From: Anaerolineae bacterium | Lineage (GTDB): Bacteria; Chloroflexota; Anaerolineae; Aggregatilineales; Aggregatilineaceae | DNA: 64,000 nt | Direction: 5' to 3' | NCBI GenBank assembly: GCA_016926875.1 | Contig: JAFGNU010000060.1 | Span: 468 to 64,467, forward strand | In this document: one piece after another, positions 16,644-21,491 of the stretch | Numbering within the stretch: position 1 is the stretch's first letter | Layout: every line of letters begins with the position of its first letter | The notes under the pieces: model-generated | The model's database searches: none | The model's input: only the letters and a program-made list of their open reading frames with translations | Told to the model about the DNA's origin: nothing | Position numbers and translations under genes: made by a program

Positions 16644-16745
16644 CAACTACTGGTCCAGATTTGCACGCAAGCCGTGCCGCGCGTGTTGCCGCTGCTGCCC
16701 GGCACACTGTACAATGAACCCGGTATTGATACACAAGGGGGTAGT

Positions 16746-17963
16746 ATGCCGGTGCAGCAGGTATTCATCAGCTACAAACGCGACGACTCTGACGATTTTG
16801 TGCGCTGGCTGGCGGCGGGACTGCGCGCGGCGGGCGTGCACACCTGGGTAGACGTCGAAGACATCGATCCCGGCGAGAACTGGGACGTGGCCGTCGAACG
16901 CGGGCTGGACGCCTGCGACGCGATGATCGCGGTCCTGACGCCGGGCGCGGTCAAGTCCAGGAATGTACGGGACGAGTGGTCGTTTTTCCTCGACGAGGAC
17001 AAACCAGTTTACCCGGTCATGCTCCAGAAATGCCGCGTACCGTACCGCCTGCGGCGCGTGCAGCACATCGACTTCAGCCGCGACCCGGACGGCGCGCTGG
17101 CGGACCTGCTCGATGCGTTGGGGGCAGCCGCACACCACCCGCCGACTGAACCCGACCGCCTGCCGTTCGAACCGGAGACGGTGTTGGTCCCGGCGGGACC
17201 GTGTGTGATCGGCAGCACGGCGGCGCATGTCGCAGCGCTGAAGGACCAACACCACAACTGGGATTGGCCGGAGAAAACGGAGCAGCCGCAGCACACCGTC
17301 ACGCTGCCGGACTACCGCATCGGCAGATACCCGGTGACGGTGGGCGAATACCGGGCCTTTGTCGAGGCGGGCGGCTACCGGGAGCGGCGCTGGTGGACTG
17401 ACGCAGGCTGGCGCGTGCGCGGTGAGGAAAACTGGACCGCGCCGCATTACTGGGATGATAAGAAGTGGACCGGCGATGACCGGCTGCCGGTGATTGGCGT
17501 AAGCTGGTATGAAGCGGTCGCGTACTGCCGCTGGCTGGCGGCGCAGACGGGCCAACCCTACCGCCTGCCAACCGAGATCGAATGGGAAAAGGCGGCCAGG
17601 GGGCCGGATGGGCGGCGGTATCCCTGGGGCGATGCGTGGCGAAACGAGGTATGTACCACCCAGGAAGCGGGGATTGGGCACACAACGCCGGTCGGGCGGT
17701 ACAGCCCGGCGGGTGACAGCCCGTATGGCGCGGCGGACATGGCGGGTAGTGTGTGGGAGTGGTGTACAACCGGGTGGCGGGATACCTACGAGGAGGCGGC
17801 GGACGATGATCTGGACGGCGATGCCCGGCGGGTGGTGCGCGGCGGGTCGTGGGGTGACAACCAGGGCGACGCGCGCGCCATGTCTCGCTACGGGCTTCAG
17901 GCTGCGTCCCGGCTCAGCTTTAACGGCTTTCGGGTGGTATATACCCCGCCTGATTCCGCGTGA
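16746..17963 (+). CDS. TIR domain / FGE-sulfatase (SUMF1, C-type-lectin fold) fusion protein
   Basis: SD AAGGGGG before the ATG at 16746. TIR segment: VFISYKRDDSDDFVRWL...DAMIAVLTPGAVKSRNVRDEW. FGE segment: RIGRYPVTVGEYRAFV, SWYEAVAYCRWL, YRLPTEIEWEKAARG, MAGSVWEWC, RGGSW, GFRVV. Confidence 0.85.
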   Translation: MPVQQVFISYKRDDSDDFVRWLAAGLRAAGVHTWVDVEDIDPGENWDVAVERGLDACDAMIAVLTPGAVKSRNVRDEWSFFLDEDKPVYPVMLQKCRVPYRLRRVQHIDFSRDPDGALADLLDALGAAAHHPPTEPDRLPFEPETVLVPAGPCVIGSTAAHVAALKDQHHNWDWPEKTEQPQHTVTLPDYRIGRYPVTVGEYRAFVEAGGYRERRWWTDAGWRVRGEENWTAPHYWDDKKWTGDDRLPVIGVSWYEAVAYCRWLAAQTGQPYRLPTEIEWEKAARGPDGRRYPWGDAWRNEVCTTQEAGIGHTTPVGRYSPAGDSPYGAADMAGSVWEWCTTGWRDTYEEAADDDLDGDARRVVRGGSWGDNQGDARAMSRYGLQAASRLSFNGFRVVYTPPDSA

Positions 17964-17978
17964 GCGTGTATGTGGAAA

Positions 17979-18081
17979 GCCCTCACCCTTCCGACTACGT
18001 CGGGTCCCTCTCCCTCAGGGCGAGGGATTAGCTTAGCTCTTACTCCCCTCTCCATGAGGGAGAAGGGCGGGGGATGAGGGC
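17979..18081. repeat. nested-palindrome REP/MITE-like element (CCCTCTCC/GAGAGGG family)
   Basis: Outer arms GCCCTCA (17979-17985) and TGAGGGC (18075-18081). Inner hairpins CCTCTCCCTCAGGGCGAGGG and CCCCTCTCCATGAGGGAGAAGGGCGGGG. Confidence 0.7.
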
Positions 18082-18178
18082 CGAAAAGCGACTTTCCTGA
18101 GCACCTGCCCGCACCTTGATCATTTCTGCCGGGCGGTGTTTACTATAGATGGTCCATCTTACACCCCAAGGGGGCGAT

Positions 18179-19417
18179 ATGCGCTTGTTCATCAGCTACG
18201 CACACGTTGATCGACCGCTGGTCGCGCAGTTAGTGTCGATTCTGCGCGCGGGTGGCTGCGATCCCTGGTTCGATCACCGCCTGCTGCCCGGCCAGGACTG
18301 GCAGGCCGAACTGCTGCGCGCGATCCGGGCGTGCGATGGCTTCGTCTATGCCCTGACGCCGGAGTCGGTCGCGTCCGAGTGGTGCCGCTGGGAGTTCGCG
18401 GAGGCGGTCAAGCTGGGTAAGCCGGTCGTGCCGGTGCTGCTGCAAGCGGGAACCCAACTGCCGGATGCATTGATCCGCCTGCAATACGCCGATTTTTCGG
18501 ACGGGGCAACACCAGAGGCGGTCGCGGCGCTGATGGGCGGCCTGACACGTATTGCTGTGCGCCTCAAGCCTGGCGACGTCCCGCCCGCGCCGAGCCAGCC
18601 GCGCGGCGTTCCCGCCCAGGCGCAGCCACCCGCACCCGACCGCCTGCCGTTTGAACCGGAGACGGTGCTGATCCCGGCGGGGCCATTTTTGATGGGCAGC
18701 GACCCGGCCAAAGACCCAAATGCAATAGAAAACGAGCAGCCGCAGCACACGGTCACGCTGCCGGACTACCGCATCGGCAGGTACCCGGTCACGGTGGGTG
18801 AATACCGGGCCTTTGTCGAGGCGGGCGGCTACCGGGAGCGGCGCTGGTGGACGGACGCGGGCTGGCGCGTGCGCGGCAAGGAAAGCTGGACCGCGCCGCG
18901 TTACTGGGATGATAAGAAGTGGACCGGCGATGACCGGCTGCCGGTGGTGGGCGTAAGCTGGTACGAGGCTTACGCGTACTGCCGCTGGCTGGCGGCGCAG
19001 ACGGGCCGGACCTACCGCTTGCCAACCGAGGCCGAGTGGGAAAAGGCGGCCAGGGGGCCGGATGGACAGATTTATCCCTGGGGCGATGCGTGGCGCGACG
19101 GGCTGTGCAATACGTGGGAAGCGAAGATCAAGCGCACCACACCGGTTGGGCAGTACTACCCGGCGGACAGCCCGTATGGCGTAGCGGATATGGCGGGCAA
19201 TGTGTGGGAGTGGTGTATGACGAAATGGCGGGGCGGCTATCAGAAGGCGCCGGACGATGACCCGGACGGTGATTTCGCGCGGGTGCTGCGGGGCGGCTCG
19301 TGGGGCTACGACTTTCACCGCGCGCGCTGCGCCGTCCGCAACATCTACAACCCGCACTACTGGAACTACCACTTCGGGTTTCGGTGTGTGTGCGCTGTCC
19401 CGTCTGATCCCGCCTGA
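18179..19417 (+). CDS. TIR domain / FGE-sulfatase fusion protein, paralogue 2
   Basis: SD AAGGGGG before the ATG at 18179. TIR segment: MRLFISYAHVDR...FVYALTPESVASEWCRWEFAEAV (SxWCxxE). FGE segment: RIGRYPVTVGEYRAFV ... MAGNVWEWC ... RGGSW ... GFR. Confidence 0.85.
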   Translation: MRLFISYAHVDRPLVAQLVSILRAGGCDPWFDHRLLPGQDWQAELLRAIRACDGFVYALTPESVASEWCRWEFAEAVKLGKPVVPVLLQAGTQLPDALIRLQYADFSDGATPEAVAALMGGLTRIAVRLKPGDVPPAPSQPRGVPAQAQPPAPDRLPFEPETVLIPAGPFLMGSDPAKDPNAIENEQPQHTVTLPDYRIGRYPVTVGEYRAFVEAGGYRERRWWTDAGWRVRGKESWTAPRYWDDKKWTGDDRLPVVGVSWYEAYAYCRWLAAQTGRTYRLPTEAEWEKAARGPDGQIYPWGDAWRDGLCNTWEAKIKRTTPVGQYYPADSPYGVADMAGNVWEWCMTKWRGGYQKAPDDDPDGDFARVLRGGSWGYDFHRARCAVRNIYNPHYWNYHFGFRCVCAVPSDPA

Positions 19418-19442
19418 GCACCTGTCAAAATCCACAAAGGCG

Positions 19443-19471
19443 TTGGCAAATGGTCCGCCATGCTTTATAAT
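19443..19471 (+). promoter_or_regulatory. sigma-70-type promoter for the cysK leader
   Basis: TTGGCA (19443-19448), a 17-nt spacer, then TATAAT (19466-19471). Confidence 0.5.
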
Positions 19472-19526
19472 ACGCTTAGAACCGCTATTTAAGCAGATGA
19501 GTATCGTGTAAAAGGTTGTACATCGC

Positions 19527-19607
19527 ATGAACCGCACCCGGATTTGCTCCTGTACATGTTTGGCGACAATCAAGGCGCAGCGCTTGGGGTGTGGTGCGAT
19601 GGGTTGA
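19527..19607 (+). CDS. candidate Cys-rich leader peptide (26 codons)
   Basis: The ORF from the ATG reads MNRTRICSCTCLATIKAQRLGCGAMG*, with three Cys in codons 7-11. It lies between the promoter and an intrinsic terminator upstream of cysK. The SD is weak (AAAGG). Confidence 0.35.
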   Translation: MNRTRICSCTCLATIKAQRLGCGAMG

Positions 19608-19639
19608 ATGCGGCTGTAGGTCAGGTCAGGCAAACTCGG

Positions 19640-19668
19640 CGGTCACGCAGCAAGCGTGGCCGTTTTTT
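19640..19668 (+). terminator. intrinsic terminator in the cysK leader
   Basis: CGGTCACGC (19640-19648), loop AGCAA, GCGTGGCCG (19654-19662): 9 bp with one G-U pair. Followed by TTTTTTATTTGGTTT. Confidence 0.6.
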
Positions 19669-19739
19669 ATTTGGTTTATACAGCACGGCGGCGCGCTGCC
19701 GTGCGACTCAATGAGCGAGGTGGAAAGGGAAATTATCTC

Positions 19740-20669
19740 ATGCGCATTGCAGACAACGTCACCCAGTTGGTGGGCAATACGCCGCTGGTGCGGCTGAACC
19801 GCGTGGTCGGGGATGCGGGCGCGACAGTCGCCGCCAAGCTGGAATTCTTCAACCCGGCGCACAGCGTCAAGGATCGCATCGGCTTAGCCATGATCGAAGC
19901 CGCCGAGCGCGACGGCCTGGTCGGGCCGGATACGCTGATCGTGGAGTCAACCAGCGGCAACACCGGCATCGGGCTGGCGATGGTCTGCGCCCAGCGCGGC
20001 TACCGGCTGGTGCTGACTATGCCCGACACGCTGAGCATTGAGCGGCGCAAGGTGCTGCAAGCCTTCGGCGCGGAGCTGATCCTGACGCCCGGCGCAGAGG
20101 GTATGCAGGGCGCGATTGCTAAAGCGGAGCAGATGGCCGCCGAGAATCCGAACGTCTTCATCCCGCAGCAGTTCCAGAATCCGGCCAATCCCGACGCGCA
20201 CCGCCGCACCACCGCCGAGGAAATCTGGCGCGACACCGACGGGCAGGTCGATATCCTGGTGGCGGGCGTGGGCACGGGCGGCACGATCACCGGGACGGGC
20301 GAGGTGCTCAAGGCGCGCAAGCCGTCGGTGCAGGTGATCGCGGTCGAACCGGCGGGATCGCCGGTGCTGTCCGGCGGGGAGAAGGGCAGCCACCCGATCC
20401 AGGGCATCGGCGCGGGTTTTGTGCCGGACGTGCTGAACACGGACATCTACGACGAGATCATCACGGTAACGGGAGAGGACACGTTCCGCATGGCGCGGCG
20501 TTTGGCAACCGAGGAGGGCTTGCTGGTCGGCATCTCGTCCGGCGCGGCAACGTGGGCGGCGGTCCAGGTGGCGCAGCGCCCGGAAAACGCGGGCAAGCTG
20601 ATCGTGGTCATCATCCCGTCGTTTGGCGAACGCTATCTCTCGACGGACTTATACGCCGATCTGGCATAG
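19740..20669 (+). CDS. cysK: cysteine synthase A (O-acetylserine sulfhydrylase)
   Basis: [29 protein letters not shown] (PLP lysine), [10 protein letters not shown] and [19 protein letters not shown]. Confidence 0.93.
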
Positions 20670-20744
20670 AGCGGTTGGCGACTGGCAGTTAGCGGGTGGC
20701 AGTTGGCACCTGAAGCCGACGGCTAACCGATGGAGGAGGGACGC

Positions 20745-21491
20745 ATGTTTAATACAATCCGCGAGGACATTACTTGCACACTGGAACGCGATCCAGCGGC
20801 TCGTAACTGGCTGGAAATCGTCACGTCCTATTCTGGACTGCACGCGATCTGGCTGCACCGGCTGGCGCACCGGCTGTGGCGTGCGCGGCTGAAGCTGCTG
20901 GCGCGCTGGCTGTCACAGTTTTCGCGCTTTTTAACCGGGATCGAGATTCACCCCGGCGCGCAAATAGGACCGCGTTTCTTCATCGATCACGGCATGGGCG
21001 TGGTGATCGGCGAAACGACGGAGATCGGGGCCGACGTGACGCTGTATCACGGCGTGACACTCGGCGGTGTGAGACTGGAACCCGGCAAGCGCCACCCGAC
21101 CATCGAGGACGGCGTGGTGATCGGTGCCGGGGCGAAGGTGTTAGGAGCGATTACGGTGGGCAAAAATACACGTATCGGGGCGAACGCGGTGGTGGTCAAG
21201 GACGTGGGGCCGGATATGGTCGTGGTGGGTGTGCCGGGCAAGCCAGTTCACCGCGCGGGTCCACAGCCAACCGCCCACAAACCGGACCTGGATCACAACG
21301 TCCTGCCGGATGTTTTGTCCGTGCGGCTGGACCGCATCCTGGAACGCCTGGACGAGGTCGAGCACGCGATCTATGTCAACGGGTCGCGCAACGGACACGG
21401 TGGCAGCGAGAACCGGAGCGGCAGTGAGCACGTGGGACAGGAAGAAAGCCGCGCGCCCGAACCCGACCCGGAGCCGGACTATATGATCTGA
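20745..21491 (+). CDS. cysE: serine O-acetyltransferase
   Basis: [20 protein letters not shown] and hexapeptide repeats [31 protein letters not shown]. The long C-terminal tail ends in ...DYMI; a terminal Ile is the residue that docks into CysK in cysteine synthase complexes. Confidence 0.9.

What the first reader, a model, noticed from the sequence alone, without database searches (positions are those of the whole stretch)
19443..19739. Cys-rich leader ORF plus intrinsic terminator upstream of cysK-cysE: candidate cysteine attenuator
Seen:
- A near-consensus promoter, TTGGCA-17-TATAAT (19443-19471).
- An ATG at 19527 opening a 26-codon ORF, MNRTRICSCTCLATIKAQRLGCGAMG*, with Cys at codons 7, 9, 11 and 22.
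- Thirty-two nt after its stop, a 9-bp GC stem (19640-19662) followed by TTTTTTATTTGGTTT.
- A second 9-bp hairpin (19683-19704), the SD GGAAAGGGA and the cysK ATG at 19740.
Established: ribosome stalling on codons of the regulated amino acid in a leader ORF controls downstream terminators in the classical trp, his and leu attenuators. Cysteine-rich upstream ORFs acting as cysteine-responsive attenuators have been reported in mycobacteria. Inference: cysK-cysE here may be controlled by Cys-tRNA availability through this leader. Weaknesses: the leader SD is weak, and I could not define a convincing antiterminator pairing by eye. There is an 8-bp pairing between 19533-19540 and 19588-19595, but its role is unclear.
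Basis: partly seen in the sequence, partly recalled or inferred. Interest (0 to 1): 0.6.

Follow-up and report, generated by a model that had tools for sequence, protein, structure and literature searches.

The report
Cysteine-sensing leader attenuator of cysK-cysE
A 26-codon mini-gene with three spaced cysteine codons, followed by RNA stems that can either form or block a transcription stop signal, sits in front of the two cysteine-synthesis genes of this Anaerolineae bacterium and is conserved in its relatives, so it is very probably a classic ribosome-operated on/off switch, here described for cysteine in a phylum where I found no earlier report.

Summary
All listed features are at the stated coordinates.

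- **Conservation:** a covariance model of the leader finds the element in 36 of 42 genomes of the same family (19 of 20 high-quality ones). It lies upstream of cysK in all 38 distinct sequences. Diverged copies occur in three more families of the order.
- **uORF:** it is intact in 38 of 38. Its Cys codons vary only between TGC and TGT. The peptide outside C-x-C-x-C is not conserved.
- **Antiterminator:** 19580-19595 pairs with 19642-19657 as 14 bp, 92.6% paired across relatives against 18-57% in slid controls.
- **Folding with ribosome masks** gives the expected switch.

There was no Rfam match and no T-box. I found no publication for Chloroflexota. Known cysteine leaders differ: the mycobacterial ones are leaderless and translational, and the Rhodobacterales one precedes cysS. 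Earlier notes of this scan report analogous Cys attenuators on other DNA (Bacteroidota, CPR, Erysipelotrichaceae).

Verdict: a new member of a known kind.

The parts
19443..19471 (+). Sigma-70-type promoter TTGGCA-17-TATAAT. The predicted start of transcription is near 19478 (inferred), which gives a 5' UTR of about 49 nt before the uORF.
   Evidence: 11 of 12 consensus positions. A TTGNCA-N16-18-TANNNT site, mostly TTGGCAA...TATAAT, is found at the matching position in 27 of 38 homologous leaders (also seen).
19527..19607 (+). Leader uORF of 26 codons, MNRTRICSCTCLATIKAQRLGCGAMG, with stop codon TGA at 19605-19607.
   Evidence: An in-frame ATG-to-stop uORF holding the Cys cluster is present in 38 of 38 distinct homologues. 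The stop begins 10 nt after region 2 in 30 of 38. SD-like AAGG lies 11 nt before the ATG, which is weak.
19545..19559 (+). Sensing codons: Cys codons 7, 9 and 11 (TGC 19545-47, TGT 19551-53, TGT 19557-59), arranged as C-x-C-x-C.
   Evidence: Across 38 sequences the three codons are TGC/TGT 36/2, 7/31 and 6/30 (plus 2 Gly at the third). The x positions vary (A, S, M, I, T, V). Out-of-family copies read CMCMC or CICMC.
19531..19539 (+). Region 1 (ACCGCACCC, uORF codons 2-5). It is the 5' strand of the 1:2 anti-antiterminator and is covered by a ribosome stalled on Cys codon 7 or 9.
   Evidence: It pairs with 19587-19595. The helix is 72% paired over 38 sequences, and 7 of 9 pairs changed on both sides (on A2). 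The free-RNA MFE contains it, and the 5' hairpin is -28.1 kcal/mol.
19580..19595 (+). Region 2 (GCGCUUG-GG-GUGUGGU, uORF codons 18-23). It is the 3' strand of helix 1:2 and the 5' strand of the extended antiterminator. A ribosome at the stop codon covers it.
   Evidence: CGCTTG is invariant at the nucleotide level. The RNA motif is kept even where the reading frame over it differs, as in L134, L136 and L138.
19642..19657 (+). Antiterminator 3' strand. GUCACGC (terminator 5' arm) pairs with 19589-19595. CAAGCGU (terminator loop plus the first 4 nt of the 3' arm) pairs with 19580-19586.
   Evidence: 14 pairs, 92.6% paired over 38 distinct sequences, slid controls 18-57%, and 4 pairs changed on both sides. 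It is -14.9 kcal/mol in the window. It is the MFE when a ribosome is masked on Cys-1 and the RNA ends at 19657.
19638..19672 (+). Intrinsic terminator (regions 3:4). The stem is 19638-19648 with 19654-19664 (core 19640-19662), the loop is AGCAA, and the U-tract is TTTTTTATTT.
   Evidence: It is 98.1% paired over 38 sequences, with 7 of 11 pairs changed on both sides. Energy is -18.7 kcal/mol in the window and -19.9 at the family median.
19683..19704 (+). It is not conserved and is probably not part of the switch.
   Evidence: The spacer between terminator and cysK is 34-213 nt in relatives, with fold energies from -1.8 to -81.7 kcal/mol and no conserved sequence (sequences).
19740..20669 (+). 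cysK, O-acetylserine sulfhydrylase (cysteine synthase A), with SD GGAAAGGGA at 19722-19730.
   Evidence: Pfam PALP. NCBIfam TIGR01139, 473.7 bits against a cut-off of 350.95. It lies downstream of the leader in 38 of 38.
20730..21491 (+). cysE, serine O-acetyltransferase, the second gene of the regulated operon.
   Evidence: Pfam Hexapep. NCBIfam TIGR01172, 248.3 bits against a cut-off of 210.65. It follows cysK in 35 of 38 homologous loci; in the other three the fetched locus ends before a cysE could be seen.

Best explanation
This is a ribosome-mediated (leader-peptide) transcription attenuator of the cysK-cysE operon. It senses the supply of charged tRNA-Cys.

**The parts.** Transcription starts at the promoter at 19443-19471. 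The leader holds a 26-codon uORF whose codons 7, 9 and 11 are Cys. Four RNA segments can pair in mutually exclusive ways:

- Region 1 is 19531-19539.
- Region 2 is 19580-19595.
- Region 3 is the terminator 5' arm plus loop, 19638-19653.
- Region 4 is the terminator 3' arm, 19654-19664, followed by the U-tract.

**Cysteine plentiful.** The ribosome runs to the stop codon at 19605 and sits on region 2. If it has already left, helix 1:2 re-forms. In either case regions 3 and 4 fold into the terminator, and transcription ends near 19668-19672.

**Cys-tRNA scarce.** The ribosome stalls at Cys codon 7 or 9 and covers region 1. Region 2 is then free, about 23 nt beyond the ribosome's 3' edge. It pairs with the terminator's 5' arm as soon as that arm is made, and the pairing then extends through the loop into the 3' arm. 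This is a 14-bp antiterminator. The terminator cannot form and RNA polymerase reads into cysK-cysE.

**No translation at all.** Helix 1:2 forms and the terminator forms.

**Shown here (computationally).** The elements exist. They are conserved with covariation. The alternative folds appear under ribosome masks.

**Inferred.** The start of transcription, translation of the uORF, stalling at the Cys codons, termination in vivo, and the response to cysteine.
For: **Conservation**
- The element is found in 36 of 42 family genomes and 19 of 20 high-quality ones, essentially one copy per genome.
- It lies upstream of cysK in 38 of 38, with cysE following in 35 of 38. The upstream neighbour gene is not shared.
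- Diverged copies occur upstream of cysK in other families of the order.

**uORF**
- It is intact in 38 of 38.
- The Cys codons vary only by the synonymous TGC/TGT change, while the intervening codons and the rest of the peptide vary.
- The stop is exactly 10 nt after region 2 in 30 of 38.
- In out-of-family copies the frame over region 2 differs, yet the RNA motif CUUGUGGUGU and the C-x-C-x-C codons are both kept. Selection therefore acts on the Cys codons and the RNA, not on the peptide.

**Helices**
- Terminator: 98.1% paired, 7 compensatory pairs.
- Helix 1:2: 72% paired, 7 of 9 pairs changed on both sides.
- Antiterminator: 92.6% paired against 18-57% in slid controls, 4 pairs changed on both sides. 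The model used to align the sequences did not contain this helix.

**Folding**
- Free RNA gives helix 1:2 plus the terminator.
- A ribosome mask on Cys-1 with RNA up to 19657 gives exactly the extended antiterminator. A mask at the stop codon gives the terminator.
- Family medians are -15.4 kcal/mol for the antiterminator and -19.9 for the terminator.

**Control and parallel case**
- An ATG-started C-x-C uORF lies within 330 nt upstream of cysK in 29 of 41 Chloroflexota-labelled loci, against 3 of 39 loci labelled as other phyla.
- A structurally different leader in other Anaerolineae also keeps UGC-NNN-UGU in a short uORF ahead of a terminator.

**Other families excluded**
- No Rfam family matches, T-box included, even at E up to 10.
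Against: - **Weak start signal.** SD-like tetramers are absent or lie 12-15 nt before the ATG in most members. Translation of the uORF is therefore inferred only.
- **Related sequences.** The family members are related, so shuffle statistics overstate support. Most antiterminator variation is through wobble-compatible single changes, and only 4 pairs changed on both sides.
- **Divergent copies.** In the most divergent copies (L134-L138) the alignment-defined antiterminator is poorly kept, at 8-12 of 14 pairs with positive or weak energies. They may use a shifted register.
- **Third Cys codon.** A ribosome stalled on the third Cys codon would no longer cover region 1.
- **Thermodynamics.** The terminator is more stable than the antiterminator by about 4 kcal/mol, so the switch must be kinetic, as it is in trp.
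- **Single-sequence signal.** The leader's overall fold energy is not exceptional (z = -1.6).
Confidence: 0.8

Rival explanations
1. An RNA-only or protein- or ligand-dependent terminator/antiterminator switch, such as an unknown riboswitch, a T-box-like tRNA sensor or an RNA-binding protein. The uORF would be incidental to the conserved RNA sequence.
For: Region 2 and CGCUUG are conserved at the nucleotide level beyond what a peptide needs. The uORF has a weak SD. The alternative helices exist whether or not there is translation.
Against: There is no match to T-box or any other Rfam family, even at E up to 10. An in-frame ATG, an open frame and the Cys codons are kept in 38 of 38. The Cys codons vary only at the synonymous third base, and in-family indels keep the frame (stop 10 nt after region 2 in 30 of 38). 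A structurally unrelated leader in other Anaerolineae again holds UGC-NNN-UGU in a short ATG-started uORF. The stop codon is always placed so that a terminating ribosome covers region 2.
Confidence: 0.07
2. Translational attenuation as in mycobacteria. A ribosome stalled on the Cys codons would mainly free the cysK ribosome-binding site, and the terminator would play a minor or constitutive role.
For: The experimentally shown cysteine leaders work this way (Canestrari et al., bioRxiv 10.1101/834739). In the window's MFE the U-tract pairs with the purine-rich cysK SD region.
Against: The spacer between terminator and cysK, including the second hairpin, is not conserved in length, sequence or stability (34-213 nt). 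The conserved, covarying parts are the terminator and its competitor helices. The cysK SD is 75-150 nt from region 2, and no conserved pairing to it was seen.
Confidence: 0.05
3. The uORF encodes a functional Cys-rich micropeptide, for example a metal- or redox-active peptide or a precursor peptide. The hairpin would simply end its short transcript.
For: A C-x-C-x-C spacing resembles metal-binding motifs. The uORF has its own strong promoter.
Against: Outside the Cys codons the peptide is not conserved. Its C-terminal half is read in different frames and lengths in related copies (MIAYTQVCMCMCVPGTRKECLVV against MNRTRICSCTCLATIKAQRLGCGAMG). It is always glued to cysK-cysE. The competing helices 1:2 and 2:3 have no role in this reading.
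Confidence: 0.03

Closest known systems
Classical leader-peptide transcription attenuators of amino-acid operons (E. coli/Salmonella trpL, hisL, leuL, thrL, pheL, ilv leaders; established textbook knowledge)
   Same: A short uORF is enriched in codons for the amino acid made by the operon. There are four RNA segments, with 1:2 and 3:4 (an intrinsic terminator with a U-tract) or 2:3 (an antiterminator) as alternatives. A stalled ribosome covers region 1, and a ribosome at the stop codon covers region 2. The operon encodes the biosynthesis of the sensed amino acid.
   Different: The amino acid is cysteine and the phylum is Chloroflexota (Anaerolineae). The regulatory codons alternate (C-x-C-x-C) instead of forming a run. 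They lie just 3' of region 1, inside the 1:2 hairpin loop, rather than within region 1. The antiterminator extends through the terminator loop into its 3' arm as two 7-bp blocks. The uORF has a weak, distant SD. There is no sequence relationship and no Rfam leader family match.
Mycobacterial polycysteine leaderless sORFs, the 'Cys ribulon' (Canestrari et al. 2020, bioRxiv 10.1101/834739 / Mol Microbiol 114:93). Cys-run leader peptides in Actinobacteria were predicted earlier (Seliverstov et al. 2005, PMC1262725).
   Same: A Cys-codon uORF upstream of cysteine-metabolism genes acts as a sensor of Cys-tRNA supply through ribosome stalling.
   Different: Those sORFs are leaderless, carry consecutive Cys codons, and (for Ms5788A) act by unmasking the downstream SD, which is translational control. 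Seliverstov et al. found no terminators. Here there is a 5' UTR of about 49 nt, the Cys codons alternate, and there is a conserved intrinsic terminator with an antiterminator.
uORFC-8-2 motif upstream of cysS in Rhodobacterales (Brewer et al. 2021, PMC8632094)
   Same: It is a predicted ribosome-mediated transcription attenuator with Cys codons inside the first stem and a terminator with a U-run.
   Different: It regulates cysS rather than cysK-cysE. It has two tandem Cys codons at positions 14-15. It is found in Alphaproteobacteria and has a different structure and sequence. It is likewise only predicted.
[quoted passage not shown]
   Same: They sense tRNA charging and control a terminator/antiterminator switch upstream of amino-acid genes, including cysteine genes in Firmicutes.
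   Different: There is no T-box match at any threshold tried (E up to 10). There is no specifier-loop or T-box architecture, and a translated uORF takes its place.

Membership tests
Leader-peptide (ribosome-mediated) transcription attenuators | A short uORF with a start codon in the 5' leader, between the promoter and the structural genes | tested here: met
   The uORF is at 19527-19607, 55 nt after the -10 box. It is present and in frame in 38 of 38 homologues. The SD is weak or distant.
Leader-peptide (ribosome-mediated) transcription attenuators | Enrichment of codons for the amino acid made by the operon, conserved as codons | tested here: met
   There are three Cys codons within five codons. 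Only TGC/TGT variation is seen across 38 sequences. The operon is cysK-cysE. In the control, 29 of 41 Chloroflexota cysK loci have a C-x-C uORF, against 3 of 39 loci from other phyla.
Leader-peptide (ribosome-mediated) transcription attenuators | An intrinsic terminator (GC-rich hairpin plus U-tract) before the first structural gene | tested here: met
   It is 98.1% paired with 7 compensatory pairs, and the U-tract is conserved.
Leader-peptide (ribosome-mediated) transcription attenuators | An antiterminator helix mutually exclusive with the terminator | tested here: met
   19580-19595 pairs with 19642-19657. It is 92.6% paired, slid controls give 18-57%, and 4 pairs changed on both sides. It is the MFE under a stalled-ribosome mask. 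It is weakly kept in the five most divergent copies.
Leader-peptide (ribosome-mediated) transcription attenuators | An anti-antiterminator (1:2) whose 5' strand is covered by a ribosome stalled at the regulatory codons, with a stop codon placed so that a terminating ribosome blocks region 2 | tested here: met
   Helix 1:2 is 72% paired with 7 of 9 pairs changed on both sides. Region 1 ends 6 nt before Cys codon 7. The stop starts 10 nt after region 2 in 30 of 38. Ribosome footprint sizes are taken from general knowledge.
Leader-peptide (ribosome-mediated) transcription attenuators | Premature termination in vivo that is relieved by starvation for the amino acid | not testable with these tools
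No culture or transcript data are available.
Mycobacterial polycysteine leaderless sORF attenuators | Leaderless sORF, with transcription starting at the AUG/GUG | tested here: not met
   The conserved promoter places the predicted start about 49 nt upstream of the ATG. The start of transcription is inferred from the promoter, not mapped.
Mycobacterial polycysteine leaderless sORF attenuators | Two or more consecutive Cys codons | tested here: not met
   The Cys codons alternate (C-x-C-x-C) in all family members.
Mycobacterial polycysteine leaderless sORF attenuators | The mechanism is sequestration and release of the downstream gene's SD | tested here: not met
   The region holding the cysK SD is not conserved and has no conserved partner. 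The conserved device is a terminator switch.
T-box riboswitch | A match to the T-box covariance model (specifier loop, T-box sequence in the antiterminator bulge) | tested here: not met
   There is no match at the gathering score over the window, at E up to 10 over 19400-19780, or in relatives.
uORFC-8-2 (Rhodobacterales cysS leader) | Upstream of cysS, with tandem Cys codons near position 14-15 (PMC8632094) | tested here: not met
   The downstream gene is cysK. The Cys codons are at 7, 9 and 11 and are not tandem.

The most novel reading that the evidence does not exclude
Two structurally unrelated leader types in Anaerolineae both keep the spaced pattern Cys-x-Cys(-x-Cys), often as UGC-AUG-UGU, rather than a run of Cys codons. 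The spacing itself may therefore matter. The nascent C-x-C peptide, or this codon context, might cause a programmed arrest that responds to something other than tRNA-Cys charging alone, such as free cysteine, sulfide, redox state or a metal in the exit tunnel. That would make it an arrest-peptide sensor rather than a plain starvation sensor. A more modest version is that these leaders form an undescribed, lineage-wide set of RNA families that are the main regulators of cysteine synthesis in Anaerolineae.
Probability: 0.07. Interest if true: 0.8.

Novelty: new member of a known kind. Interest (0 to 1): 0.5.

Why it matters
Almost nothing is known about gene regulation in Anaerolineae. They are abundant in sludge, sediments and soils, and few have been cultivated.

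- **A well-defined cis-regulatory RNA family.** Promoter, uORF, three covarying helices and terminator are all defined for the cysteine-synthesis operon of one family, with diverged relatives in the order.
- **Classical attenuation in Chloroflexota, for cysteine.** Cysteine-sensing leaders have been shown experimentally only in mycobacteria, where the mechanism is different (translational and leaderless).
- **Practical uses.** The element allows cysK-cysE leaders in MAGs to be annotated. It supplies a testable cysteine-responsive switch. It also suggests that transcription and translation are coupled closely enough in these bacteria for attenuation to work.
- **A wider pattern.** A second leader type was found here, and analogous elements were noted elsewhere in this scan. 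Together these suggest that Cys-codon leaders are far more widespread than the literature shows.

Tried and rejected
- **Rfam.** The whole window at the gathering score, the leader at E up to 10 and eight related loci gave only noise (isrD, HOTTIP_1). T-box and other known riboswitches are rejected.
- **Alignment A1 was discarded.** Alignments A2-A5 were rebuilt from coordinates only.
- **RNAalifold on A2.** It recovered only the terminator and small local stems. The 1:2 and 2:3 helices had to be proposed from constrained folds and then tested by pair counts.
- **Weak covariance-model hits.** Those in L139, L140 and L142-L148 (E from about 7e-6 to 0.006) are bare terminators not next to cysK, so they are false positives. 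There is no second copy in these genomes.
- **Genome-wide scan of G000 for Cys-cluster uORFs followed by a terminator.** Of 36 raw candidates nearly all lie inside long reading frames. Apart from this leader, only one clearly intergenic case remains, upstream of an ABC-2 transporter, and it has no evident link to cysteine. No Cys regulon is evident in this 86%-complete genome.
Rejected, because it is not conserved.
- **Literature.** Six searches found no description for Chloroflexota. The library lacks most subscription journals, so absence is not proof.
Full report
**1. The observation**

- The promoter TTGGCA-17-TATAAT is at 19443-19471. It matches 11 of 12 consensus positions, and it is the only such site in 19300-19900 against 0.2 expected.
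- An ATG at 19527 opens MNRTRICSCTCLATIKAQRLGCGAMG, with the stop codon at 19605-19607.
- A GC-rich hairpin follows. Its core is 19640-19662, and the scan tool extends it to 19638-19664. It is followed by TTTTTTATTT.
- A second hairpin lies at 19683-19704.
- The SD GGAAAGGGA lies at 19722-19730, and an ATG at 19740.

The genes downstream are cysK (TIGR01139, 473.7 bits) and cysE (TIGR01172, 248.3 bits). Both score above NCBIfam's curated cut-offs. Upstream lies a TIR-FGE fusion gene.

On the single sequence alone the case is weak. The leader's fold energy has z = -1.6, and one terminator-like site is what shuffles give.

**2. Organism and conservation**

The closest cysK loci in public genomes are Anaerolineae (Chloroflexota) MAGs.

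A DNA search of 40 relatives gave partial matches covering the uORF and the terminator. Inspection showed the same layout in all of them: a TTGGCAA-N17-TATAAT promoter, a uORF with C-x-C-x-C, and a nearly invariant terminator.

I built a covariance model (R1) from 15 coordinate-defined leaders (alignment A2).

- **Family.** R1 finds the element in 36 of 42 genomes and in 19 of 20 high-quality ones, essentially once per genome.
- **Order.** R1 also finds diverged copies in three other families of the order.
- **Class.** In an even sample of 151 genomes, only one further genome has a match.
- **False positives.** Weaker hits that are not next to cysK are bare terminators.

In 38 distinct sequences (alignment A3) the element always precedes cysK. 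cysE follows in 35 of 38, and in the other three the fetched locus ends before a cysE could be seen. The TIR-FGE neighbour is unique to this window. The leader therefore belongs to cysK-cysE.

**3. The uORF**

- In all 38 sequences an ATG is in frame with the Cys cluster and the frame is open.
- The three Cys codons are TGC/TGT 36/2, 7/31 and 6/30 (plus two Gly at the third). They vary only by the synonymous third base.
- The codons between them (A, S, M, I, T, V) and the rest of the peptide vary.
- Indels inside the uORF keep the frame, so the stop begins exactly 10 nt after region 2 in 30 of 38.
- In out-of-family copies the peptides are MIAYTQVCMCMCVPGTRKECLVV, MTTYRAVNCICMCRQGASPRPPVV and MVSSLVQSCMCTCLPPQGALVV. 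The frame over region 2 is different there and the stop falls inside region 2, yet the RNA motif CUUGUGGUGU is retained.

What is conserved is therefore a translated run of spaced Cys codons plus RNA elements, not a peptide.

The uORF's start signal is a weak point. SD-like tetramers are absent or sit 12-15 nt before the ATG in most members. In the window it is AAGG with an 11-nt spacing.

**4. The RNA switch**

Constrained folds suggested a classical four-segment design. Pair counts on the alignments support it.

- **Terminator** (19638-19648 with 19654-19664): 98.1% of cells are paired, and 7 of 11 pairs changed on both sides.
- **Helix 1:2** (19531-19539 with 19587-19595): 72% paired, and 7 of 9 pairs changed on both sides.
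- **Antiterminator, inner block.** GUGUGGU (19589-19595) pairs with GUCACGC (19642-19648), the terminator's 5' arm. It is 98.1% paired on A2 and 90.2% on A3.
- **Antiterminator, outer block.** The invariant GCGCUUG (19580-19586) pairs with CAAGCGU (19651-19657), which is the terminator loop plus the first four bases of its 3' arm. It is 95% paired, with three pairs changed on both sides. Examples are CAC...GUG in L124 and CGCCUG...CAGGCG in L131.
- **Both blocks together.** They form a 14-bp duplex with a 2x2 internal loop. It is 92.6% paired, against 18-57% when the partner is slid by 1-3 columns.

The alignment model contained only helix 1:2 and the terminator, so the antiterminator counts are not biased by the fitting.

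Energies in the window are -14.9 kcal/mol for the antiterminator, -18.7 for the terminator and -28.1 for the 5' hairpin. Family medians are -15.4 and -19.9.

**5. How it most likely works**

I used footprint sizes from general knowledge: about 15 nt on the 5' side and about 12 nt on the 3' side of the first A-site base.

- **Ribosome waiting at Cys codon 7.** It covers about 19529-19557. That is all of region 1 and none of region 2.
- **RNA available up to 19657 under that mask.** The MFE is exactly the extended antiterminator.
- **Ribosome at the stop codon.** It covers about 19590-19617, and the MFE contains the terminator.
- **Free RNA.** It folds into helix 1:2 plus the terminator.

Low Cys-tRNA therefore gives read-through. 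Ample Cys-tRNA, or no translation at all, gives termination near 19668-19672.

The terminator is more stable than the antiterminator, so the choice must be kinetic, as in trp. Region 2 meets the 5' arm before the 3' arm exists.

- **Shown here:** the elements, their conservation and covariation, and the predicted alternative folds.
- **Inferred:** the start of transcription, uORF translation, stalling, termination and the response to cysteine.

The fourth Cys codon (codon 22, 19590-19592) lies within region 2. It is best explained by the RNA motif.

The second hairpin (19683-19704) is not conserved. The spacer between terminator and cysK ranges from 34 to 213 nt, with fold energies from -1.8 to -81.7 kcal/mol.

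**6. A second leader type in the class**

Many other Anaerolineae cysK loci do not match R1. They carry a short uORF ending ...C-x-C-(L/T/P)-(R/G)-R-G-x, for example MQTCMCLRRGL, MLICICLRRGS and MRKCTCQGRGF. This type has the following conserved features:

- an invariant UGC-NNN-UGU followed by GGCGGGG;
- a nearby CCGCC and a distal CCCCGC, both of which could pair with GGCGGGG;
- a long-range, strongly covarying stem (GGCCAACU with AGUUGGCC) followed by a U-run.

A model of it (R2) matches 13 of 151 sampled class genomes, in at least eight families. I did not check the gene context of those hits.

Across the 80 best cysK loci, an ATG-started C-x-C uORF lies within 330 nt upstream in 29 of 41 Chloroflexota-labelled loci, against 3 of 39 loci labelled as other phyla.

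This is independent support that Cys codons in a leader uORF are the selected feature. Neither type matches Rfam.

**7. Comparison with what is known**

The mechanism is that of the classical trp, his and leu attenuators. All sequence-testable defining features are met. The in vivo response could not be tested.

It is not a member of three related groups.

- **Mycobacterial Cys leaders.** Those are leaderless, have consecutive Cys codons and work by unmasking the SD. Seliverstov et al. found no terminators in Actinobacteria.
- **The uORFC-8-2 motif.** That motif precedes cysS in Rhodobacterales and has tandem Cys codons.
- **T-box.** There is no match.

Six literature searches found no report for Chloroflexota. 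The library is incomplete, so this is not proof of absence.

Earlier notes of this scan are AI leads that I did not check. They describe analogous Cys-codon attenuators upstream of cysK or cysE in Bacteroidota, CPR bacteria and Erysipelotrichaceae. None concerns this DNA or this phylum.

**8. Limits**

- The sequences are related, so shuffle-based figures overstate independence.
- Most antiterminator variation is wobble-compatible.
- The five most divergent copies do not keep the alignment-defined antiterminator well.
- The uORF's SD is weak.

**9. Verdict**

This is a new member of a known kind: a leader-peptide transcription attenuator for cysteine in Anaerolineae. My confidence in the mechanism is about 0.8, and I score interest at 0.5.

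Noticed in passing
L030:1310-1490, L037:1258-1470, L055:1319-1490, L073:1295-1480 and 13 more loci (alignments A4, A5): A second, structurally different cysK leader occurs in other Anaerolineae. It has a short uORF ...C-x-C-L-R-R-G-x with invariant UGC-NNN-UGU and GGCGGGG, a nearby CCGCC, a distal CCCCGC, and a long-range covarying stem (GGCCAACU/AGUUGGCC) followed by a U-run. There is no Rfam match. Model R2 hits 13 of 151 class genomes in at least 8 families. Its switching logic was not worked out, and the gene context of the class hits was not checked.
   Followed up: partly
G000:C32:16815-16886 (minus strand; not in the window): Apart from this leader, this is the only clearly intergenic Cys-cluster uORF followed by a terminator that my scan found in this genome. 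The uORF is MRRLLYRAKLCECCKCRMNTYRIR. About 100 nt later comes a hairpin plus TTTTATTT, upstream of an ABC-2-type transporter ATPase and permease genes. It has no evident link to cysteine and could be another ribosome-sensing leader.
   Followed up: partly
G271:C1:3701970-3702084 and G271:C1:3434655-3434765 (handles; not fetched): One complete Anaerolineae genome has two matches to the second leader type. That may mean a second gene or operon under the same control there.
   Followed up: no
window 16674-19417: The tandem TIR plus FGE-sulfatase-fold genes directly upstream of the leader are absent from the equivalent position in all 37 homologous loci examined. This neighbourhood is therefore specific to this genome.
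   Followed up: partly
window 19581-19586 and 19651-19656: CGCTTG, read as the Arg-Leu codons of the uORF, is invariant in the 15 closest leaders (A2) and nearly so across the 38 (A3), although both amino acids have six codons. Its pairing with CAAGCG in the terminator loop and 3' arm explains this. It shows how RNA constraints can look like peptide conservation (the ...QRLWCGA motif).
   Followed up: yes
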